Of a stretch of DNA of 64,000 nt, positions 3,083-34,003 are shown piece after piece. The stretch comes from Acidobacteriota bacterium (GTDB lineage: Bacteria; Acidobacteriota; UBA6911; RPQK01; CBDAPI01). Within the stretch, counting starts at the first letter, position 1, and each line of letters starts with the position of its first letter. The notes below the pieces were generated by a model that ran no database searches, was not told the origin of the DNA, and worked only from the letters and a program-made list of their open reading frames with translations. Location: assembly GCA_965249245.1 (NCBI GenBank), contig CBDFLV010000006.1, positions 1,658,327 through 1,722,326 of the forward strand. The letters run 5' to 3'. The position numbers and the translations under genes are program-made.

Positions 3083-3223
3083 GGCCCGCAGGATACGAGG
3101 CCTTGAGCTCCACCTCAAGATCGTAAATATTCGGTAAACCCCGTCTTGCAATAATCTCCTTCCAAATAAGCCCGCGGTCAAACTTTGCTGGACACAGAAG
3201 CTGCGAGTGTGTATACAGGGAGC

Positions 3224-4846
3224 ATGCAGCTGAGTGCTACCACCAAGCCGGAATCGGGTGGACTGACGGCTGATGGCTCGACGAAGCGGGTTTTGGTGGC
3301 CAAGGAAGAGTACATCCGGCTGCGCTGGGCGGCAGCGTACTGGAAGGCCCAGCATGCCGGGGCGGTGGAGAGAGAAAAGCAGTTGAAGTCAGAGAACTTG
3401 AGTCTGCGGGCTCGAGTTCGAGAGCTGGAGAGTCAGCTCTGGGGGCGCAAGAGTGAACAGGCCAAGGGTGGGCGCGCTGGCAGTTCCAGCCCCAAGGCGA
3501 GCGGGCGACCCCGAGGGCAGCAAAAAGGCAAGCAGGGGCACGGTCGGACCACTCTGGACGGGTTGGCAGCCCAGGAAGAGGTAGTGGATCTGGAGGAAGC
3601 CCAAAAAAGCTGTCCGAAATGCGGTCTGGCACTGGAAGCCTTGGGCTGGACGGAAGACGCCGAGGTGGCCGAAATCGAAGTGCGGGCCCACCGGCGGGTG
3701 ATCCGGCGGCGCAAGTACAAAGCGGCCTGCCGCTGCGGGGTGCTGCCCGGCATTGTCACGGCGCCCGCCCCGGCACGCTTGATTCCCAAAGGCAAACTAG
3801 GGATTTCGGTTTGGGTGGAGATTCTGCTGGAGAAGTTTGACCATTGCCGCCCCACCCACCGTCTGTTGCAGCAGTGGCGAGACCACGGTTTGACTCTCTC
3901 TGCAGGAACGGTGGCCGGAGGGCTGAAAAAACTGCAGGGTCTGTTTTTGCCGGTGGCCGAGGCGATCGCCCAGCAGCAGCTCACCCAGGAGAACTGGCAA
4001 GCCGACGAGACCGGCTGGCCGGTGTTTGTGGCGGTGGAAGGCAAAAGCGGACGGCTCTGGCATTTGTGGGTGTTTTTGTCGGCCTCCACAGTCGTGTACC
4101 AGCTCCAACCCAGTCGCTCGTCTGCAGTGCCTCAATCTCACTTCGGCAGCGCCCAGGGCACTTTACTCACCGATCGATATTCTGCCTATAAGAAGCTGGT
4201 CCGGGTCTCAGAGGGGCGTATTTGCCATGCCTTTTGCTGGGCTCACGTGCGCCGCGACTTTTGGCGACTGGGCCTATCCCACCCCCCCTGGCAGGACTGG
4301 TCCCTGATGTGGATTGACGACATTGGCCGGCTCTTTGCTGCCAATCAGCTGCGGCTGGCAGTTCGCGATCAGCCCTTGGAATGGGCCCGGGCCGATCGAA
4401 AGCTGCGGGTGGCGGTTGAGAAAATGCGAGAGCAATGCGAGGCTCAACGCCAGCTTCCCAGCCTGGCTCCCCCCTGTCGCAAGGTCCTGAAAAGCCTGGC
4501 TCGACACTGGCCAGGGCTGACCGTGTTTGTGGATCAACCGGAAGTGGCTATGGACAACAACGCCGCCGAACGCGCCTTGCGCAACCCGGTGGTGGGACGC
4601 AAGAATTACTACGGCTCAGGCAGCCGCTGGAGCGCCCAGTTGGCGGCCAGCTTATTCAGCATCTTTGCCACCCTGCGACTCAACGGCCTCAACCCCCGCC
4701 TGTGGCTCAGGGACTATCTGCAGGCCTGCGCTAGGCAAGGCGGACAGCCGCCACCCGACCTGGATCCTTTTCTTCCCTGGGAAATAAGCCCCCATCGTGC
4801 CCGCGCATTGACCTGGGCCAGGACGCCGGCAGCGGAGGCTGGATGA
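3224..4846 (+). CDS. tnpC: IS66-family transposase TnpC
   Basis: Coiled-coil leader, CPKCG zinc finger, ADETGW, LTDRYSAY, CWAHVRR, DNNAAERALR motifs; ATG 3224 follows an AGGGAG RBS. Confidence 0.92.
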   Translation: MQLSATTKPESGGLTADGSTKRVLVAKEEYIRLRWAAAYWKAQHAGAVEREKQLKSENLSLRARVRELESQLWGRKSEQAKGGRAGSSSPKASGRPRGQQKGKQGHGRTTLDGLAAQEEVVDLEEAQKSCPKCGLALEALGWTEDAEVAEIEVRAHRRVIRRRKYKAACRCGVLPGIVTAPAPARLIPKGKLGISVWVEILLEKFDHCRPTHRLLQQWRDHGLTLSAGTVAGGLKKLQGLFLPVAEAIAQQQLTQENWQADETGWPVFVAVEGKSGRLWHLWVFLSASTVVYQLQPSRSSAVPQSHFGSAQGTLLTDRYSAYKKLVRVSEGRICHAFCWAHVRRDFWRLGLSHPPWQDWSLMWIDDIGRLFAANQLRLAVRDQPLEWARADRKLRVAVEKMREQCEAQRQLPSLAPPCRKVLKSLARHWPGLTVFVDQPEVAMDNNAAERALRNPVVGRKNYYGSGSRWSAQLAASLFSIFATLRLNGLNPRLWLRDYLQACARQGGQPPPDLDPFLPWEISPHRARALTWARTPAAEAG

Positions 4847-5703
4847 AACGCTTCTGCGGGCGAGACTTTAGCGGCCGGGAGATGCGGCGACTGTGTGAGC
4901 TGATTGGCGAAGATCCGACCCGCTCGCGGGCCCAGCTCTCCCGCTTGGCCTGCCAGCTCTTGGGCTGGTTCAAGCCTGACGGTGGCCTCAAGGAGATGAG
5001 CTGCCGGGTGGCCATGCTGCGCATGCATCGGCAGGGGTTGCTGCAGCTGCCGCCCCCTCGCAACCCGAAGGGAGGCTCGGGCCCAATCAAGCACACTTTC
5101 TGCAGCGCACCACAACCGCTGCTGTCCCGACCCGTGCACGAGCTGTCCGGCCTGCATCTGGAGCCGGTCCTGAGCCGCCCCGACTCCACTTTGTGGAATG
5201 AATACATCGACCGCTACCACTATCTGGGATACAAGCCCCTGCCGGGTGCTCAGCTGCGCTACTTCGCTTGTTCCGAAAGCCGCATCCTGGCCCTGCTCGG
5301 CTTTGGCGCCGCCGCTTGGAAAACCGCCCCTCGCGACCGCTTCATCGGCTGGCGTCCTTCGGAAAGGGAGAGAAACCTTCAACTGATCGTCAACAACGCC
5401 CGTTTCTTGATCCTTCCCTGGGTCGAGTCCAAGAACCTGGCCTCTAAACTGCTGGCCATGGCCGCGCGTCAACTCCCCGAGGACTGGCACGACCGCTACG
5501 CCTACCGACCCGTTCTGCTGGAAACCTTCGTCGACACGGGGCGCTTCACAGGCGCCTGCTACAAGGCCGCCAACTGGATCCATGTCGGACAGACCCAGGG
5601 CCGGGGCAAGCTGGACCGTGACCGCAAGGCCGATCTGCCCACCAAAAGCATCTGGCTCTACCCCCTGAGCAAACACTTCCGAAGATCGCTTCGCTCCACT
5701 TGA
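4843..5703 (+). CDS. DUF4338-domain protein (DruA-like) with N-terminal HTH-like segment
   Basis: YIDRYHYLGY, NNARFLILPW, NLASKLL, LETFVD, GACYKAANW motifs; ATGA overlap with the tnpC stop; lies inside the IS66 TIRs. Confidence 0.85.
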   Translation: MKRFCGRDFSGREMRRLCELIGEDPTRSRAQLSRLACQLLGWFKPDGGLKEMSCRVAMLRMHRQGLLQLPPPRNPKGGSGPIKHTFCSAPQPLLSRPVHELSGLHLEPVLSRPDSTLWNEYIDRYHYLGYKPLPGAQLRYFACSESRILALLGFGAAAWKTAPRDRFIGWRPSERERNLQLIVNNARFLILPWVESKNLASKLLAMAARQLPEDWHDRYAYRPVLLETFVDTGRFTGACYKAANWIHVGQTQGRGKLDRDRKADLPTKSIWLYPLSKHFRRSLRST

Positions 5704-5916
5704 GTTCCCAACCCGCCTCACCCCATTAGGCATAAAGCCGATGATGGGTTTACCGAATATTTACTCAAGATCCGCGTAAGTCATTGCTGTAAAAGGTGGA
5801 CGGTATTTTTCGGGGGGACAGCGGCCAAACTGCAGACCTACCCGGAGCTTCTCGAAGGCGCCGCCTGTGAGGGTAGCGGCAAGTTCGGCCCGAAATAGTA
5901 GTAGAATAAAGTCGCT

Positions 5917-27309: not shown

Positions 27310-29577
27310 TTGACGACCTCTAGAAAGAGTTTTTTCGGGACCTTCGTTCTTGTCGCCTGGTTCCTGGCGCTGCAGGCCTCCCTGGGCAGTGGCGCTCTCC
27401 GGGCAGGTGCAAAAACACCACGTGGATCGGGAGACGTTCGGCTGGGCGAGCCGCGCCATCTCGATCTTTACTTTCCCTTCCAGCAGGTTGATAATCTTCA
27501 GGAGTGGAAGCTTCGATCTGCCCAATTGCGACGTCAGATTCAGGTGGCGACCGGGCTCCTTCCCTATCCCCCGCGGACGCCCCTGAAGGCGGTTATCCAC
27601 GGGGAGGTGCACCGCACCGGGTACACAGTCGCAAGGGTCTACTTCGAGTCCCTGCCAGGGCATTTCGTGACTGGCAATCTCTACCGACCGAGCGGTAGCG
27701 GAACTCGGCGGCCGGGTGTATTGTCCCCCCACGGGCACGCAGGGGACTCGCGGCAGCACCACCAAAACGGACGGTTTCATGATCATGGTGCCGATGGGAT
27801 TCGGGGGGAGATGGCTGCTGGGGCAGAGCGTTTTGTGGTGGGAGGACGCCACCCCCTGCAGGCGAGGGCGGTCCAGCTGGCTCGCATGGGATGTGTGGTC
27901 TTTCAGTATGACATGGTTGGTTTTGGCGACAGTCTGCAGCTCTCTCACAGGGGCGTCGGGCCCCGACCGGCGATGAACACACTGCAGGACTGGGGTTTCT
28001 CCAGTCCACGCGCCGAGCTCCATCTGCAAAGTTTGATGATGCTGCAGACCTGGAACTCAATTCGTGCTCTGGACTTTCTGGTCTCCCTTTCCGACGTTGA
28101 TCCCGAGCGGATTGCTGTGGAAGGACACAGTGGAGGTGGGACCCAGACCTTCATTCTGGCAGCACTGGACGCCCGGCCGGCGGTGGTTTTCCCGGCCGTG
28201 ATGGTGTCGACTTCCATGCAGGGCGGCTGTATCTGTGAGAATGCGTGCTATCTGAGGATCGGTGCCGGCAACGTTGATTTTGCAGCTCTTTCCGCTCCCC
28301 GGCCGCTGGGTATGACGGGTGCTGACGACTGGACCCGTGAGATCGAAACCCGGGGGCTTCCGGATTTGAAGCGGGTGTACGAGTTTCACGGTGTGCCCGA
28401 GCTGGTGGCGGCGGCGGTGTTCCCTCAATTTGAGCACAACTACAACAGTGTGAGCCGGACGGTCATGTACACGTGGCTGAATCGTCATCTGGGTCTCGGT
28501 TGGCCCGAGCCCGTGATCGAACAGGACTATATTCCCCTGACGGAAGGGGAGATGTCGGTTTGGAATCATGAGCATCCCGCTCCCCGGGGCGACGCCGTCG
28601 GCGAGTCTCACGAGCGCTCTCTGGTTTCCTGGTTGAGTGACAGTTCTCGGCAGCAGATGGAAAGGATTTGGCCACGCGACCCGGAAAGCTACCGGGAGTT
28701 TCGATCTACACTCGGTCAAGCCTTCGACGTGATTCTGGGTCGTAGCCTGGAGGAGATTGGCAATGTTCACTCAAAGGGAATTGAAGAAGGGCCAGACAGC
28801 ACCGGCCGGTTTGAGAACCTCGCGGGGTCAGCAGGGACTCATCACGGGCAACGTATCCTGCTCTCCAATCGTTTCTCCGAGGAAGTCCGGATCCGCAGCT
28901 GGTCGAATCCCGGCCGGGCGAGTCGAACCCTGATCTGGATCAGTGGGGGAGGGATTGGGGATCTGTCGGCACCAGACAACGAGCCGCGCACCGCGGTAAA
29001 GCGTCTTCTGGAAGCGGGTGTTCGGGTCATCAGCACTGAATTACTCGGGCAGGAAAGCCGCGCTGGAAACGGTGGGTTTGACCGGAATCGTCTGGTTCTG
29101 AACGGCGATGGATCCCAGGGTTGGCATCGCCATGCCGCCTACACGTTCGGCTACAACTATCCGCTCTTCACGCAGCGTGTGCATGACGTTTTAACCATCA
29201 TGAGTTATGTCACATCAAAGTGGCCCGGGAGCAGGCTCGAGCTGGTCGGACTGGGCCCCGTCGCGGGACCGATAGCGGCAGCAGCCCGAGCCCAGGGTGG
29301 TGAAGCTTTGCACAAGACGGCTATTGACACCGGCGGATTCCGATTCTCGGACATCAACCAGTTTGATCATCCCATGTTCTTGCCGGGGGCGGCCAGGTAC
29401 TTCGATCTCCCGGGTCTTCTGCTGCTCCCGCGGGGGGGTGGAGATCTGTGGCTAACGGGTGAGAGCACCGACTGGCTGGCCGGAATCAGGGACGCCCATC
29501 GGACTTCCGGCCAAACTTTTGCCCTGGTAACCCCCGGTTCTGAGTCGTCGGTTGTTGACTGGTTGCTGAAGGAATGA
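27310..29577 (+). CDS. Secreted alpha/beta-hydrolase (acetylxylan esterase-like, two-domain)
   Basis: Signal peptide, YFESLPGHFVTGNLY, nucleophile GHSGGGTQT, CICEN, HNYN motifs. Confidence 0.8.
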   Translation: MTTSRKSFFGTFVLVAWFLALQASLGSGALRAGAKTPRGSGDVRLGEPRHLDLYFPFQQVDNLQEWKLRSAQLRRQIQVATGLLPYPPRTPLKAVIHGEVHRTGYTVARVYFESLPGHFVTGNLYRPSGSGTRRPGVLSPHGHAGDSRQHHQNGRFHDHGADGIRGEMAAGAERFVVGGRHPLQARAVQLARMGCVVFQYDMVGFGDSLQLSHRGVGPRPAMNTLQDWGFSSPRAELHLQSLMMLQTWNSIRALDFLVSLSDVDPERIAVEGHSGGGTQTFILAALDARPAVVFPAVMVSTSMQGGCICENACYLRIGAGNVDFAALSAPRPLGMTGADDWTREIETRGLPDLKRVYEFHGVPELVAAAVFPQFEHNYNSVSRTVMYTWLNRHLGLGWPEPVIEQDYIPLTEGEMSVWNHEHPAPRGDAVGESHERSLVSWLSDSSRQQMERIWPRDPESYREFRSTLGQAFDVILGRSLEEIGNVHSKGIEEGPDSTGRFENLAGSAGTHHGQRILLSNRFSEEVRIRSWSNPGRASRTLIWISGGGIGDLSAPDNEPRTAVKRLLEAGVRVISTELLGQESRAGNGGFDRNRLVLNGDGSQGWHRHAAYTFGYNYPLFTQRVHDVLTIMSYVTSKWPGSRLELVGLGPVAGPIAAAARAQGGEALHKTAIDTGGFRFSDINQFDHPMFLPGAARYFDLPGLLLLPRGGGDLWLTGESTDWLAGIRDAHRTSGQTFALVTPGSESSVVDWLLKE

Positions 29578-30413
29578 GGTAAAAAACGGCGATCTGAGCG
29601 GACCACGGAGGGTCCTCCTACACCGGGAATGTCACGGACCGGCGAAGTGTAGGAGCCGCTTCCATGCGGCGATCCGATCGGACCACGGAGGGTCCTCCTA
29701 CACTGGGAATGTCACGGACCGGCGAAGTGTAGGAGCCGCTTCCATGCGGCGATCTGATCGGACCACGGAGGGTCCTCCTAGTGCGCTCGTAAGCGCACTT
29801 GAACAGTAGGGTGAAAGTCCCTACCGGGCAAACGTTCTCCGGCCCGTATTCGACGGCAACTGCGTCATCGTGAGGTGGGGTGGGAAGCAGCCGAAGGAGA
29901 ACCACCAGTCTGTAGGAGACGAACTCGATTCGGCTCAGAGGGGACAGCGAGCCTGCTGGGAAATGGCGAAGCTCGAATGGAAGGGAAACCTGACACGGAC
30001 AAGAGCCTGATGGGTAACGTGAAAAAGGCATCTTGTTAACCCTTGGGGTGGTTGGATGATCAACGTCAAATAGAATTCCCGCAGCGACGATTGGAAATCC
30101 CCACACAAGGATTAAAAAAAAAGAGCTGTAGCCGTCCTCTGAGACGGCCCTTTCCGCGGTCCTCCTTTCTGTAAAAAAGAGAGATTGTTCCTAGAATGCG
30201 AGGGGGACGGAGTGAGGGCGTAGCCCGAACGGAGCTCCCCCTCGCTCGCGCTGGCGTCGAGGGGAGTGGACCAGATCCACGAGGCTGCTGAGCGGCCTCT
30301 GTAGGGCGCTGTACGACCTCTCCCCTTGGCGGGCACTCGTCTATCGCCCTCACCAAGCACTTTCCGGGGTCCAATCAGCCGATTTGCCCGGATTTGACCT
30401 CCTCGCGGTTTCC

Positions 30414-31178
30414 TCATTTCGTGGTTCCCTGCTGCTTTGCCTTGGCGCTCTCCATTCGATAGCTCGGGACGTTGAGTTCCAGAATCACGCTGTGGTGCAC
30501 CAGCCGGTCGATGGCTGCTGCCGTCGTCAGGGGGTCCTTGAAGATCCTCTCCCAGTCCGAGAAGATCAGGTTGCTGGTCAGCAAGATGCTGCGACGTTCG
30601 TAACGATGGGCCAGCAGTGTGAAGAGAACCTCCATTTCCTCCCGGCTTTGCTGAACGTAGCCGATGTCATCGACTATGAGAGCCTCGAAGCGATCCAGTT
30701 TCTTGAGCTCCTTCTCCAGAGTCAGATCGATTTTGGCCCGCAGCAATCGCTGTACCAGCAGGGCGCAGGTAGAAAACAGAACCCGGCGCCCCAGCAGAAT
30801 CAACTCCTGGCCCAGAGCACAGACCAGATGGGTTTTCCCGCTCCCAGGGTTACCGAAAGCCAAGACGTTCTCGGCACGATCCAAAAACGTCCCTTCCAGC
30901 AGCGCTGTGAGTTGTCGATCCACGCTTTGGGGCAAGCGCGAGCGGTCCAGCGCCGTCAGCGTTTTCTCCCAGGGAAGCTTGGAGGCCCGACGCTGGCGCT
31001 GGATTTTGCGCTCGTGCCGCTCCGCCACCTCGATCTCAGATAACGACAAGAGAAACCGGGGATAGGACAGACTTTCCTGGGTGGCCAGTGCCGCCTGGGC
31101 GGCGTAGTGCTCCCGAAAGGCCGGTAGATGCAGCTCGATTAGGCACTCGCGAAGTCGCGGTAAGTTGCCTGTGCTCAT
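30414..31178 (-). CDS. istB: IstB ATPase, copy 2
   Basis: Translation identical to copy 1. Confidence 0.93.
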   Translation of the reverse strand: MSTGNLPRLRECLIELHLPAFREHYAAQAALATQESLSYPRFLLSLSEIEVAERHERKIQRQRRASKLPWEKTLTALDRSRLPQSVDRQLTALLEGTFLDRAENVLAFGNPGSGKTHLVCALGQELILLGRRVLFSTCALLVQRLLRAKIDLTLEKELKKLDRFEALIVDDIGYVQQSREEMEVLFTLLAHRYERRSILLTSNLIFSDWERIFKDPLTTAAAIDRLVHHSVILELNVPSYRMESAKAKQQGTTK

Positions 31179-32647
31179 GACCTCACCTCCCGGTTCTCGA
31201 GAAGGGTGTCGTAGAGGCCCACGTCCATCTTCTCCACCATCACTTCCCAGGGTTCCACCACCGGATCGACAAGGCATTCTCGTAGTGCTTCAAAACGGAT
31301 TCTTTGTCCCCGCTCAATCAACACCTGAAGTGCCTCTCGCACCCGCTGTTCACCTTCCTGGGCAGCCACCTCGAGGATCTTCAGATATTGGCGATCCGCC
31401 GTGGCCGGACAATCTCGGCGCAGCTCGTCGTAGGCGACTCGAAACAAGATCCCCGGAAACAGATCCTCCCGCCAGCGATAGCGAGTAAACGCCCCCGGCT
31501 TGCGCACCAACGAATGGATCACGTGCCGGTAGTCAATGCGATGCTTGCCTTCTCCTCGCAAGCGCGGCATCCGTGCCTGGCGCCGTCCTCCGTAGTAGAC
31601 CTCCACCTGATCCGCCCACACCCGCACTTGAACGCGCTCGCCGATCAACCGGCTGTCCACCGAATAGGTGTTGTGGCGAACCCGGATCGTACTGCTGGGG
31701 GAGACTCTCACCCACTGCCGGGTGAAGTCATCCAGACGGCGTGCCGGCAACGGGCGCATCACTGCCAGCTCTTCTCCCAGGCGCTTTTGCCGGGCCGCAT
31801 TGCGCCGGGACACAATCACCGCTACAAAGCCCTCGTACTCTTCCCGGCTGGAAAAATCACGGCTACACCGCAGCAGCAGTTCCTGCTCAATGGCCCGTTT
31901 CAAGCGGTGATGGGACTGTTCCACATCCCCGTTCTCGTGTGCCTTTCCTGCCTGAGTGCGACTGGAGCGCATCCCGAAGTGTCTCAGCAACGCTTGATAG
32001 CGCTCGGTGAACTCTTCCCGCTTCAGGTTCTTGACTGCCGCCGAGAGCCGGTCGGTCCGGTGCTCCTCGGGCAGCGCCCCCAACTCCCACAACGCGTTCT
32101 GAAGCCCCAGGCTGAGGCTCTCAAACGACTCACTGAAACACAGCGTGGTCGCTTCCCAGTTCGAGTAGGCCAACACGAAGTGGTACAGCAGATGGGGAAA
32201 CGGCTGGCCCTGGATCGTCACTCCGAGGCGCCCCATAAACGTGAAGTCCGATTGCGCTTGATGTCCCGGCTGATACTTCTGCGGGAACATCACCTCCTTC
32301 GCTTCTCCGTATTCTGCCTTCCACTGCTTGATCCTGCGCTGCAGCGTTCTCAACTGGCCTTGCTGGAAGGCCCCTTCCTGCTGACGACACAAATGATCGA
32401 ACACCGCTTTTGCTTCCACCGTCGGCGATCGCTTCAGGATCTCTTTCACCTCCGGCCACACCGACTCGAACGGATCCGATCGAGTTCTCCAATACCGTTC
32501 CGGCTGACACTGGCTCGGTAGCTTTCCCGACTTCAGGTACTTGCGAGCTGTCTTTCGCGACATCCCCGCTTTGGCCGCCGCCATCGTTAGCGTCTTCTCG
32601 TTCTTCTTCAACTTTACTAACCTCCGCACTTGCTGATCCTTAACCAT
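31175..32647 (-). CDS. istA: IstA transposase, copy 2
   Basis: One amino-acid difference from copy 1. Confidence 0.93.
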   Translation of the reverse strand: MVKDQQVRRLVKLKKNEKTLTMAAAKAGMSRKTARKYLKSGKLPSQCQPERYWRTRSDPFESVWPEVKEILKRSPTVEAKAVFDHLCRQQEGAFQQGQLRTLQRRIKQWKAEYGEAKEVMFPQKYQPGHQAQSDFTFMGRLGVTIQGQPFPHLLYHFVLAYSNWEATTLCFSESFESLSLGLQNALWELGALPEEHRTDRLSAAVKNLKREEFTERYQALLRHFGMRSSRTQAGKAHENGDVEQSHHRLKRAIEQELLLRCSRDFSSREEYEGFVAVIVSRRNAARQKRLGEELAVMRPLPARRLDDFTRQWVRVSPSSTIRVRHNTYSVDSRLIGERVQVRVWADQVEVYYGGRRQARMPRLRGEGKHRIDYRHVIHSLVRKPGAFTRYRWREDLFPGILFRVAYDELRRDCPATADRQYLKILEVAAQEGEQRVREALQVLIERGQRIRFEALRECLVDPVVEPWEVMVEKMDVGLYDTLLENREVRS

Positions 32648-32890
32648 GCCCTCATGGTCAGGATCAGCCCTGAAAAAGCGGGGAATTCCATTTGTCGTCG
32701 CGGGGAATTCTAACTGTCGCCAATCAGTTGGAGATGGAATGGTGGGAAGTTCAAGTGACGTAAAGCGAGGAGGTCTGCGAAAGGTCGGTCTGGCAAGAGA
32801 CCCGCAGAAGTCAGAGGCGGCGTAGTAGTGAAGAAGCCGGGTAATGCCGGTGGAGCGAAGGCCCGCCAGGAAGGTGGATGTGTAGAGTCA

Positions 32891-33121
32891 ATGACGAAGC
32901 AAGAGGAACTGTCGAAAGTGGAGGAGACTCCTAAGCAAGGCAGAGAAGCCGAGAGCCAGAAATGGAGCTGGGTGGAAGCGGAAGTGTGGACCGAACGCAT
33001 GCTGACGACCCTGGAAACAGGAGTGAAAGGAGGCAAAAATGCCTACTTTATCGAGCAGGGGCTATTTACCATGGCCGTAGCCCACGCGCAGATCTGTCAG
33101 TCCCGCCGTGGACCCCACTGA
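32891..33121 (+). pseudogene. Intron-encoded RT/maturase remnant (76 aa; N- and C-termini fused in frame)
   Basis: WSWVEAEVWTERMLTTLETGVKGGK is joined at ~33037 to NAYFIEQGLFTM; no RT motifs (no YADD); ends just before domain V. Confidence 0.85.
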
Positions 33122-33538
33122 CTGGAGAGCCGGATGCGGGAGAACCGCACGTCCGGTTCGGAGGGAGGGGAGGCTCAAACCAATGAGCTTTCCCTACCCC
33201 TATCACCGGGAATGTCACGGGCCGGCGAAGTGTAGGAGCCGCTTCCATGCGGCGATCCGATCGGACCACGGAGGGTCCTCCTACACTGGGAATGTCACGG
33301 GCCGGCGAAGTGTAGGAGCCGCTTCCATGCGGCGATCTGATCGGACCACGGAGGGTCCTCCTACACTGGGAATGTCACGGACCGGCGAAGTGTAGGAGCC
33401 GCTTCCATGCGGCGATCTGAGCGGATCGCAGAGCATCCACCACATTGGCTTCGCTTATGACCCAAACTTGACTCAACACTAAAGATCCGCTTCACTCAGG
33501 CGAAGCTGGAACCGGAACCCAGAACCCAGAGGAACAAG

Positions 33539-34003
33539 ATGACTCCCGAAGAAACGCTGACGGCCCTTGCTTTGGAGCTTCCACCAACACCCAAACCGGG
33601 CGGGATTTACAAGCCACTTCTGATGCACGGCGGCCTGGCCTATGTCTCAGGCCATCCCCCCCTATCCTCGGATGGAACCCTCATCCGGGGCAGAGTCGGA
33701 GCAGACCTCAGTCTCGAGGAAGGGAAGGCAGCGGCGCGCCAGGTGGGTCTCGGCATACTTGCGACTCTGAGGGGCGAGCTGGGGAGTCTTGATCGGATCT
33801 CCGGAGTGGTCAAGGTGCTGGGAATGGTAAACGCCACCCAGGATTTTGAGGATCATCCCCAGGTGATCAATGGCTGCAGCGAGCTGTTTGCCGAGGTGTT
33901 TGGAGAAGAGAAAGGCATCGGCGTACGCAGCGCGGTTGGAATGGGATCGCTGCCCGGCAACATCGCCGTCGAAATCGAGGCTATTTTCGAGCTTTCAGAA
34001 TGA
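33539..34003 (+). CDS. RidA/YjgF-family protein
   Basis: LAYVSG, VINGCSELF, RSAVGMGSLP...VEIEAI motifs. Confidence 0.9.
   Translation: MTPEETLTALALELPPTPKPGGIYKPLLMHGGLAYVSGHPPLSSDGTLIRGRVGADLSLEEGKAAARQVGLGILATLRGELGSLDRISGVVKVLGMVNATQDFEDHPQVINGCSELFAEVFGEEKGIGVRSAVGMGSLPGNIAVEIEAIFELSE

What the first reader, a model, noticed from the sequence alone, without database searches (positions are those of the whole stretch)
29760..33210. Group II intron inserted precisely into a REP: 5 nt after the hairpin and inside the GTAG motif
Seen: the 5' exon ends GGACC-ACGGAG-GGTCC-TCCTA and the 3' exon starts CAC, so insertion splits CTA|C, the reverse complement of GTAG, with no duplication. Established: hairpin-adjacent targeting is typical of IIC introns (terminators, attC), which usually have a CGC triad. 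This intron has an AGC triad and a longer domain V. Inference: a non-IIC lineage may use abundant REP/BIME hairpins as harmless, multi-copy homing sites. Candidate EBS1s are TGTAGGAG (29911-29918; perfect match to CTCCTA|CA but early in domain I) and the loop TGGGG (30044-30048; 5 bp with two G-U pairs). This is my best candidate for an undescribed system in the window.
Basis: partly seen in the sequence, partly recalled or inferred. Interest (0 to 1): 0.82.

Follow-up and report, generated by a model that had tools for sequence, protein, structure and literature searches.

The report
Hairpin-seeking group II intron in repeats
This is one dead copy of a self-splicing mobile intron that has spread to about 98 places in this genome by landing just after small DNA hairpins in harmless intergenic repeats. 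That targeting style was so far credited only to one other intron class (IIC).

Summary
A group II intron (29781-33203) sits 5 nt after the hairpin GGACC-ACGGAG-GGTCC, between TCCTA and C, inside an 80-nt tandem repeat, with no target duplication.

This copy is dead. It is a 747-nt derivative with a collapsed protein gene, and an IS21 element (30057-32726) splits it.

The genome holds about 98 copies. 90 lie exactly 5 nt after a 5-bp-stem, 6-nt-loop hairpin. At least five different stem sequences are used, and the copies lie in 96 distinct loci.

Hairpin+TCCYA|C sites: 92 occupied, 556 empty. The same 6-mer without a hairpin: 4 occupied, 5399 empty.

Covariation across 48 related introns places EBS1 at UGGGA (29957-29961) and a probable EBS3 at G30051. 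No EBS2 is detectable.

Relatives in many phyla (50-60% protein identity) also sit 0-8 nt after GC-rich hairpins (50 of 52, against 8% of control positions). In three other genomes these hairpins are multi-copy REP-like repeats.

The targeting works like class IIC. However, domain V (AGC triad, 5-nt loop) and the N-terminal extension of the protein are IIE/IIF-like. Class membership stays unresolved. I rate it a new variant of a known kind.

The parts
29587..29780 (+). Left part of the REP-like 80-nt tandem array (2.4 units). Each unit carries two hairpins bracketed by GTGTAGGA...TCCTACAC, so it offers one target site on each strand.
   Evidence: TRF, period 80, 96% matches. Sequence read. Genome-wide family of about 650 hairpin+TCCYA|C sites in 187 clusters.
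29760..29775 (+). Target hairpin GGACC-ACGGAG-GGTCC (5-bp stem, 6-nt loop). It lies directly upstream of IBS1, where IIA/IIB introns have IBS2.
   Evidence: 90 of 98 copies have a hairpin of this geometry, with at least 5 different stem sequences.
29776..29780 (+). IBS1, TCCTA (TCCCA at one third of the sites).
   Evidence: 5' exon ends tabulated. Pairs with UGGGA; the G opposite position -2 accepts U or C.
29781..30056 (+). Intron 5' segment (intron positions 1-276): GUGCG and most of domain I.
   Evidence: Identical to 61 uninterrupted 747-nt copies.
29911..29918 (+). It is part of the conserved GUCCGUAGGAUGACGAAC-type motif (epsilon'-like bulge), not EBS1.
   Evidence: Conserved in 48 related introns with unrelated 5' exons.
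29957..29961 (+). EBS1, UGGGA, in the 11-nt loop of the hairpin CGAGCC-UGCUGGGAAAU-GGC..GCUCG.
   Evidence: 36 of 48 related introns carry a 5-nt complement of their own exon positions -5..-1 at this aligned place; the best of 200 shuffles reached 11. Loop placement from RNAalifold.
30051..30051 (+). Probable EBS3: the variable base N in the conserved GGUG-N-UUGG. It pairs with the first base of the 3' exon.
   Evidence: G in all 34 relatives whose 3' exon starts with C. U in the relatives whose 3' exon starts with A. 39 of 44 Watson-Crick pairs overall.
30057..32726 (-). IS21-family insertion sequence (2670 bp). istA is at 31175-32647 and istB at 30414-31277. The 6-bp target duplication GTTGGA is at 30051-30056 and 32727-32732. 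The element splits domain I at EBS3 and so kills this intron copy.
   Evidence: Pfam: IstB_IS21 204 bits; rve and Mu-transpos_C_2 in IstA. Boundaries. About 130 near-identical copies in the genome.
32727..33203 (+). Intron 3' segment (intron positions 271-747): end of domain I and domains II to VI.
   Evidence: One mismatch to the reference copy.
32828..33121 (+). Collapsed intron-encoded protein gene (97 aa). An in-frame 1104-nt deletion joins ...GVKGGK to NAYF..., with the junction at 33037/33038.
   Evidence: Full-length 1851-nt copies encode a 444-aa RT plus maturase protein with no endonuclease domain.
33127..33159 (+). Domain V, 33 nt: AGC triad at 33128-33130, distal stem GCGG/CCGC, 5-nt loop.
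   Evidence: Rfam RF00029 alignment. The same form occurs in all relatives and in the class-F type introns Ni.ha.I1, Rh.sp.I1 and an E. coli plasmid intron.
33162..33203 (+). Domain VI: long stem, bulged branch-point A at 33196, 3' end AU.
   Evidence: Rfam alignment. Sequence read.
33204..33425 (+). IBS3 (C at 33204) and the right part of the REP-like array (2.8 units).
   Evidence: TRF. Every 3' exon listed starts with C.

Best explanation
WHAT IT IS. The feature is a dead copy, split by IS21, of a 747-nt non-autonomous derivative of an 1851-nt group II intron.

HOW THE FAMILY MOVES. The family retrohomes into a structured target: a short GC-rich hairpin followed at once by TCCYA|C. REP-like intergenic repeats supply this target in hundreds of copies.

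HOW THE TARGET IS READ.
- The RNA reads only about 6 nt: EBS1 UGGGA pairs with TCCYA, and EBS3 G pairs with C at +1.
- There is no EBS2.
- The hairpin, at the place of IBS2, supplies the rest of the specificity as a structure. This is how class IIC introns work at terminators and attC sites.

LIKELY ROUTE OF INSERTION. The protein has no endonuclease domain, and insertions favour the G-rich strand. Insertion therefore most likely occurs into transiently single-stranded DNA at replication forks, with a nascent strand as primer.

COLLAPSED COPIES. The copies with the collapsed protein gene (61 intact ones) are moved in trans by protein from the roughly 8-14 full-length copies.

LINEAGE. It works like IIC but is not a canonical IIC. 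Domain V and the N-terminus of the protein are of the IIE/IIF type.

SHOWN: copy numbers, site consensus, EBS1-IBS1 covariation, hairpin enrichment, strand bias, intergenic bias, lack of an endonuclease domain.
INFERRED: recognition of the hairpin as single-stranded DNA, the priming mode, mobilisation in trans.
For: OWN GENOME
- 98 intron 5' ends; 61 intact 747-nt copies, 37 of them identical to the reference copy; about 14 full-length copies.
- 90 of 98 lie 5 nt after a 5-bp stem, 6-nt loop hairpin. The stems are GCCGC/GCGGC, GGACC/GGTCC, GCGGC/GCCGC, GGGCC/GGCCC and GCGGG/CCCGC.
- Occupancy: 92 of 648 hairpin sites against 4 of 5403 non-hairpin TCCYAC sites.
- A 68-copy pseudo-hairpin+TCCCAC inside an IS66 element is never used.
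- 96 distinct upstream contexts, so the copies are independent insertions.
- Restored empty sites are crossed by a frame of at least 200 aa in 14 of 61 cases, against 343 of 400 random positions.
- 73% of occupied sites are on the G-rich strand, against 44% of empty sites (Fisher p = 1e-7).

RNA READING OF THE TARGET
- EBS1 covariation: 36 of 48 introns, shuffled maximum 11.
- EBS3 column.
- No EBS2 signal in any region.

PROTEIN
- RVT_1 plus GIIM only; TIGR04416 at 406 bits.

RELATIVES
- 50 of 52 insertion sites have a hairpin of at least 5 bp ending 0-8 nt upstream, against 8% of control positions.
- The target motif is multi-copy in three other genomes: 20, 132 and 71 copies.

LINEAGE
- Domain V form and N-terminal motif.
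Against: - No experiment or RNA data.
- The hairpins within this genome share loop motifs (RCGGAG, ATGGAA). Inside one genome, structure and sequence recognition therefore cannot be fully separated. The case for structure rests on the five stem variants and on the relatives.
- The leading strand was assigned from GC skew alone, in a genome rearranged by IS elements.
- Class assignment is unresolved. The best solved-structure matches are all IIC reverse transcriptases. The tree has long, unresolved reference branches and lacks class E, the basal class F introns and IIC-attC.
Confidence: 0.7

Rival explanations
1. It is simply a member of class C (IIC), perhaps of a poorly sampled subclade, doing what IIC introns are already known to do: insert after inverted repeats. 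The domain V differences would be variation within the class.
For: - The four best solved-structure matches are IIC reverse transcriptases (E 3e-68 to 6e-55, against 7e-43 for a chloroplast-like and 2e-37 for a mitochondrial-like protein).
- No EBS2, a short IBS1, an EBS3 and a hairpin at the IBS2 position.
- A large AGGA-containing bulge like the IIC epsilon' motif.
- IIC introns are described as lying after terminators 'or other inverted repeats' (PMC1702495, PMC3001079).
Against: - Domain V has AGC and a 4-bp distal stem with a 5-nt loop in every relative, not CGC with a stem 2 bp shorter (criteria in PMC1702495).
- The protein carries an N-terminal extension, absent from GsI-IIC and E.r. 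IIC, that is shared with class-F type proteins.
- Identity to class F/g3 (40%) and to Rh.sp.I1 (39%) equals or exceeds identity to IIC (38% and 35%).
- GsI-IIC and E.r. form their own clade with 100% support, outside the family.
Confidence: 0.2
2. It is ordinary sequence-specific homing into a repeated sequence. The protein or RNA would read an extended sequence of the repeat, and the hairpin would be incidental because REP-like repeats happen to be palindromic.
For: - Within this genome the loops are similar (RCGGAG, ATGGAA) and the tail TCCYAC is constant.
- Occupancy differs between hairpin variants: 37% for GCCGC-GCGGAG-GCGGC-TCCTA against 6% for GGACC-ACGGAG-GGTCC-TCCTA.
Against: - Five stem sequences with paired changes are used.
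- No intron segment covaries with exon positions -6 to -12.
- Relatives with unrelated hairpin sequences keep the same geometry: 96% against 8% of controls.
Confidence: 0.07
3. It is passive co-amplification. The intron would have entered one repeat once, and the repeat together with the intron would then have multiplied by repeat transposition or array expansion.
For: Two loci carry introns in neighbouring units of one array.
Against: - 96 different upstream contexts.
- Hundreds of empty sites of the same types.
- The intron is found after several hairpin types and on either strand of the repeat unit.
- The strand bias is not shared by the empty sites.
Confidence: 0.03

Closest known systems
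Class C (IIC) group II introns, e.g. B.h.I1, O.i.I1, GsI-IIC, E.r. IIC
   Same: - Protein without an endonuclease domain.
- Small ribozyme.
- Short EBS1-IBS1 pairing plus EBS3.
- No EBS2.
- A DNA or RNA stem-loop at the IBS2 position.
- Insertion a few nt after inverted repeats in intergenic DNA.
   Different: - Domain V has AGC and a 5-nt loop (33 nt), not CGC with a distal stem 2 bp shorter.
- IBS1 is 5 nt (4-6 in relatives), not 3-4.
- The protein has an N-terminal extension.
- The targets are REP-like multi-copy repeats without T-runs, not terminators.
IIC-attC introns (S.ma.I2 lineage) inserting into integron attC hairpins
   Same: [quoted passage not shown]
   Different: - Different site family: attC bottom strand, consensus TTGT|T.
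- They form a subclade inside IIC.
- No member could be fetched for a direct comparison.
- The best plasmid-borne enterobacterial relative seen was 41% identical, and that one proved class-F-like.
Group IIF / class F introns (Pe.th.I2, Ge.ur.I1, Ni.ha.I1) and IIE
   Same: - 5-nt loop in domain V.
- AGC triad.
- Long domain VI.
- Ribozyme of about 500 nt.
- Protein of about 440 aa without an endonuclease domain, with an (R/K)(F/W)xxLxDK N-terminal motif.
- Many members lie in non-coding DNA.
   Different: - IIF introns are described with EBS1 and EBS2 and as homing elements.
- Ni.ha.I1, Rh.sp.I1 and Sr.me.I2 have no hairpin upstream.
- Most of domain I of Ni.ha.I1, including the EBS1 hairpin, does not align to this family.
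REP-targeting insertion sequences (ISPpu9, ISPpu10, ISPa11, ISPsy8, IS1397; Tobes and Pareja 2006, PMC1525189)
   Same: They are mobile elements that use REP palindromes as abundant, harmless landing sites. That survey also lists a Pseudomonas putida group II intron in REPs at 2 of 9 copies.
   Different: They are DNA transposons that act through transposases. Here a retroelement reads the site with an RNA guide plus the hairpin structure.
Proliferated thermophilic introns of Thermosynechococcus elongatus with ORF-less derivatives (from my own knowledge: Mohr et al. 2010)
   Same: High copy number within one genome, and ORF-deleted copies moved in trans by related intron proteins.
   Different: Those are IIB (chloroplast-like) introns that diverged to many sequence-defined sites. 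They do not target hairpins.

Membership tests
Group II intron (general) | 5' GUGYG, catalytic domain V, domain VI with a bulged A, 3' AY | tested here: met
   GUGCG at 29781. RF00029 56.4 bits against a gathering score of 40. Bulged A at 33196. The intron ends UAU.
Group II intron (general) | Reverse transcriptase/maturase encoded in domain IV | tested here: met
   Full-length copies: TIGR04416 at 406 bits (cut-off 300). The window's copy keeps only a 97-aa in-frame remnant.
Class C / IIC (criteria of Toor et al. 2006, PMC1702495) | Domain V with a distal stem 2 bp shorter and CGC in place of AGC | tested here: not met
   AGC triad, 4-bp distal stem, 5-nt loop, 33 nt, in the own copy and in all 70+ relatives.
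Class C / IIC | No EBS2-IBS2; a stem-loop lies at the IBS2 position | tested here: met
   No covariation with exon positions -5 to -13. Hairpin present in 90 of 98 own copies and at 50 of 52 related sites.
Class C / IIC | EBS1-IBS1 of only 3-4 bp; EBS3 as in IIB | tested here: inconclusive
   The pairing is 5 bp here and 4-6 bp in relatives. An EBS3 column is supported.
Class C / IIC | Epsilon' region is an 11-nt bulge with a conserved AGGAA | tested here: inconclusive
   A conserved GUAGGAUGACGAAC segment (AGGAG here) is mostly unpaired in the consensus fold. It is similar but not identical. No IIC RNA was at hand to align.
Class C / IIC | Intron protein falls within the class C clade | tested here: inconclusive
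   38% and 35% identity to GsI-IIC and E.r. IIC, against 40% to the class F/g3 protein. The tree is unresolved at depth. Reference proteins of classes E, A, B and IIC-attC were not available.
Group IIE/IIF (Nagy et al. 2013, PMC3753933) | 5-nt loop in domain V instead of a tetraloop; small ribozyme; long domain VI (IIF) | tested here: met
   GCGG-GAGAA-CCGC. About 500 nt of ribozyme outside the ORF. Long domain VI.
Group IIE/IIF | EBS1 and EBS2 in domain Id that pair with adjacent IBS1 and IBS2 | tested here: not met
   EBS1 was found. No EBS2 signal in any region test.
Group IIE/IIF | Alpha' at the tip of a stem-loop in domain Id3, plus an extra bulge loop | not tested
   Tertiary pairings other than the EBS/IBS pairs were not mapped.
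REP/REPIN-RAYT system | Short palindromic, dispersed, mainly intergenic multi-copy repeats | tested here: met
   About 650 hairpin+TCCYA|C sites in 187 clusters. The sites avoid long open frames.
REP/REPIN-RAYT system | A cognate REP-associated tyrosine transposase flanked by the repeats | tested here: not met
   Only two Y1_Tnp matches. The intact one is an IS200-type TnpA with its own end hairpins, and none of these repeats lies within 700 nt of it. The assembly is 94% complete.
IS21 family | istA (DDE transposase) plus istB (AAA+ helper), a short target duplication, repeated terminal motifs | tested here: met
   Pfam matches. 6-bp duplication GTTGGA and TG...CA ends. 22-nt repeats at 32678-32719.

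The most novel reading that the evidence does not exclude
The clade may be an undescribed major lineage of bacterial group II introns, belonging to neither class C nor class F.
- It is found in Acidobacteriota, Verrucomicrobiota, Planctomycetota, Desulfobacterota and Pseudomonadota.
- It would have specialised on REP/REPIN-type hairpins.
- It would guide insertion by hairpin structure plus a 5-nt RNA guide that is re-tuned to the REP tail of each host.
- Hairpin-guided retrohoming would then be either ancestral to a wider group than IIC or have arisen twice.
Probability: 0.3. Interest if true: 0.8.

Novelty: new variant of a known kind. Interest (0 to 1): 0.62.

Why it matters
Reviews up to 2025 credit hairpin-guided insertion to class IIC alone (PMC4424553, PMC12584367). 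They treat every other lineage as a sequence-specific homing element.

Here a large, widespread clade with a IIE/IIF-type catalytic domain uses the same trick on a different and much more abundant substrate: REP-like repeats.

If this holds, three things follow.
- It widens the known distribution of structure-guided retrohoming.
- It links two kinds of selfish DNA, REP families and retroelements, in a host-parasite-like relation.
- It explains how about 98 copies can build up in one genome without harm.

The data also form a natural mutagenesis series for working out how a ribonucleoprotein recognises a DNA hairpin. The series comprises five stem variants with occupancies from 4% to 57%, and dozens of relatives with different stems, loops and spacings. 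That could be useful for designing gene-targeting introns.

Tried and rejected
- Rfam D1-D4 models on uninterrupted copies gave only sub-threshold matches (23 and 18 bits). They were of no use for classing.
- The protein tree with the references I could obtain did not resolve the deep branches. The references were GsI-IIC, E.r. IIC and T.el4h transcribed from alignments to solved structures; Ni.ha.I1, Sr.me.I2 and Rh.sp.I1; and a class D intron from plasmids.
- GenBank accessions CP000320, AE006469 and DQ363750 are not held. The RefSeq equivalents worked for two of them.
- Simon et al. 2008 and Robart et al. 2007 are not held.
- The cluster look-up gave no names.
- The search for a REP-associated transposase found only an IS200-type gene.
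- The EBS3 search by simple column matching first pointed to a spurious column at position 162. I rejected it in favour of the conserved GGUG-N-UUGG column.
- 22 'non-hairpin' junction strings looked like exceptions. 18 of them are chance TCCYAGTGCG strings with no intron behind them.
- HIP1 counts show no enrichment of the kind seen in HIP1-rich cyanobacteria.
No reads could be laid to look for spliced exons.


Full report
WHAT IS IN THE WINDOW

The sequence reads ...GGACC-ACGGAG-GGTCC-TCCTA | GTGCGC... at 29780/29781 and ...CCCTACCCCTAT | CACCGG... at 33203/33204.
- Rfam finds domains V-VI of a group II intron at 33125-33203 (56.4 bits).
- The two flanks are parts of one 80-nt tandem array. 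Joining them restores a repeat unit, so nothing was duplicated.
- The array lies between two genes on the + strand: an esterase-like gene (27310-29577) and a YjgF/RidA-like gene (33539-34003).
- An IS21 element occupies 30057-32726. It has istA and istB on the minus strand and a 6-bp duplication GTTGGA.
- Without the IS21 element the intron is 747 nt long. It differs at one base from the copy I took as reference.
- Its reading frame is a 97-aa remnant. An in-frame loss of 1104 nt fuses ...GVKGGK to NAYF....

THE FAMILY IN THE GENOME

The assembly (6.67 Mb, 6 contigs, 58% G+C) holds 98 intron 5' ends.
- 61 are intact 747-nt copies. 37 of these are identical to the reference copy and all but one are at least 99.5% identical.
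- About 14 are full-length 1851-nt copies; 8 of the 12 recovered whole are uninterrupted. They encode a 444-aa reverse transcriptase/maturase with no endonuclease domain.
- The short form evidently spread after the deletion. It must rely on protein made by the long form; this is an inference.

WHERE THE COPIES SIT
- 97 of 98 5' exons end in CTCC(T/C/G)A, and every 3' exon listed starts with C.
- 90 of 98 insertions lie exactly 5 nt after a hairpin with a 5-bp stem and a 6-nt loop. The stems are of at least five kinds: GCCGC/GCGGC, GGACC/GGTCC, GCGGC/GCCGC, GGGCC/GGCCC and GCGGG/CCCGC.
- Genome-wide, TCCYA|C preceded by such a hairpin is occupied 92 times and empty 556 times. TCCYAC without it is occupied 4 times and empty 5399 times.
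- A 68-copy weak pseudo-hairpin+TCCCAC inside an IS66 element is never used.
- The copies lie in 96 different upstream contexts, so they are separate insertions and not segmental duplications.
- Restored empty sites are crossed by a long open frame in 14 of 61 cases, against 343 of 400 random positions. The sites are thus overwhelmingly non-coding.
- 73% of occupied sites are on the locally G-rich strand, against 44% of empty sites of the same kind (p = 1e-7). This fits insertion into the lagging-strand template. That inference assumes that the G-rich strand is the leading strand.

HOW THE RNA READS THE SITE

I collected 80 loci that encode relatives of the protein (50-60% identity). They come from Acidobacteriota, Verrucomicrobiota, Planctomycetota, Desulfobacterota, Pseudomonadota and other groups. 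I located the intron ends and aligned domain I of 48 distinct introns.

I then scanned for an intron segment complementary to each intron's own last five exon bases.
- One aligned position stands out: 36 of 48 introns match there, against a maximum of 11 in 200 shuffles.
- This position is the 11-nt loop of a conserved hairpin. In the window it reads UGGGA, at 29957-29961.
- Examples of the covariation: exon GGCUA with loop UAGCC, AAUGA with UCAUU, UCGUA with UACGA, AAAUGU with ACAUUU.
- The G opposite exon position -2 explains why both TCCTA and TCCCA are used.

- TGTAGGAG is part of a motif, GUCCGUAGGAUGACGAAC, that all relatives keep whatever their exon.
- TGGGG lies 5' of a conserved GGUG-N-UUGG.

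In that element N is G in all 34 relatives whose 3' exon starts with C. It is U where the 3' exon starts with A. N is therefore the probable EBS3, at G30051. The IS21 element inserted right at this point.

No segment covaries with exon positions -5 to -13, either by aligned position or by region. An EBS2 is absent or undetectable.

THE HAIRPIN IS A PROPERTY OF THE WHOLE CLADE
- At 50 of 52 distinct related sites, a perfect stem of at least 5 bp ends 0-8 nt before the insertion point. The control rate is 8%. For stems of at least 7 bp the figures are 54% against 1.3%.
- The hairpin sequences are unrelated between hosts.
- In three hosts tested, the hairpin-plus-IBS1 motif is a dispersed repeat: 20 copies in Desulfosarcina alkanivorans, 132 in a Verrucomicrobiae genome and 71 in an Acidobacteriaceae genome. 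The copies often form convergent pairs about 35 nt apart, like REP doublets.
- A close relative from a metagenome (96% protein identity) lies in the same repeat family as here.
- In the own genome no REP-associated transposase accompanies the repeats. I therefore call them REP-like.

WHICH CLASS?

IIC is defined by:
- a shortened domain V with CGC;
- no EBS2;
- a 3-4 bp EBS1 pairing;
- an EBS3;
- an 11-nt AGGAA bulge;

This clade meets the exon-recognition criteria but not the domain V criterion. All members have AGC and GCGG-GAGAA-CCGC with a 5-nt loop. That loop, a small ribozyme and a long domain VI are the stated hallmarks of IIE/IIF (PMC3753933).

The same domain V form occurs in Ni.ha.I1 (class F/g3), Rh.sp.I1 and an E. 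coli plasmid intron. Their proteins share an N-terminal (R/K)(F/W)xxLxDK motif with this one. The solved IIC proteins start after that motif.

Those class-F type relatives, however, lie in genes with no hairpin upstream. Most of domain I of Ni.ha.I1, including the EBS1 hairpin, does not align with this family.

By protein identity the family is equidistant from its nearest references: 38% and 35% to IIC, 40% to F/g3, 39% to Rh.sp.I1. The tree does not resolve the matter.

I conclude that the clade works like IIC but cannot be filed as canonical IIC. It may be a sister or intermediate lineage. Reference proteins for class E, the basal class F introns and IIC-attC were not obtainable here.

WHAT IS KNOWN
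- IIC introns are described as lying after terminators 'or other inverted repeats' and 'usually after palindromic sequences' (PMC1702495, PMC3001079).
- A 2006 survey of REP-associated elements lists a Pseudomonas putida group II intron in REPs at 2 of 9 copies (PMC1525189).
- Reviews of 2015 and 2025 name only IIC as hairpin-guided (PMC4424553, PMC12584367).
- I found no paper that describes a clade of this type dedicated to REP-like repeats. The library lacks many subscription papers, so this is absence of evidence only.

VERDICT
- The REP-hairpin targeting idea is supported and extends well beyond this genome.
- The EBS1 proposals are corrected.
- The class is unresolved.
- I rate it a new variant of a known kind of targeting, of moderate to high interest.

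I did not test that. It agrees with Acidobacteriota being the commonest group among the named relatives.

Noticed in passing
window 30057-32726; genome-wide: The IS21-family element has about 130 near-identical copies (99.7-100%) in a 6.67-Mb genome, a very recent burst. Several copies interrupt other intron copies at different positions, for example intron positions 54 and 56-57.
   Followed up: partly
window 32678-32719: 22-nt tandem repeats (GCGGGGAATTCCAACTGTCGTC, 1.9 copies) lie just inside one end of the IS21 element. The matching motif GAATTCCCGC lies at the other end. They are probably the multiple transposase-binding repeats typical of IS21 ends.
   Followed up: no
genome-wide: Occupancy differs strongly between hairpin variants: 37% for GCCGC-GCGGAG-GCGGC-TCCTA, about 50% for GCGGC-RCGGAG-GCCGC-TCCCA, 6% for GGACC-ACGGAG-GGTCC-TCCTA and 4% for GCCGC-ATGGAA-GCGGC-TCCTA. 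This is a natural series for working out what the ribonucleoprotein prefers in stem and loop.
   Followed up: partly
window about 4592 (minus strand); 68 copies genome-wide: The motif CGTAGTAATTCTTGCGTCCCAC occurs in 68 copies, 67 of them with identical flanks. It lies inside the IS66-type element that another note of this scan places at 3123-5764. It contains an intron IBS1/IBS3 match but is never occupied.
   Followed up: partly
G000 C6:1596138-1596494 (outside the window; L088): An intact 152-aa IS200-type Y1 transposase has its own CCCCCGG...CCGGGGG end hairpins. A second copy, on C2, carries a stop codon. Neither is linked to the REP-like repeats.
   Followed up: yes
G000 C6:561729-562841 and C6:771727-772829 (L003): Two 747-nt introns sit in neighbouring units of one repeat array, separated by a single unit of 80-90 nt. 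Arrays can therefore be colonised unit by unit.
   Followed up: partly
L090 (metagenome contig, 96% identical protein): Two intron protein genes lie head to tail only 110 nt apart (8-1390 and 1501-2835). This suggests that one intron lies next to or inside another in a related strain.
   Followed up: no
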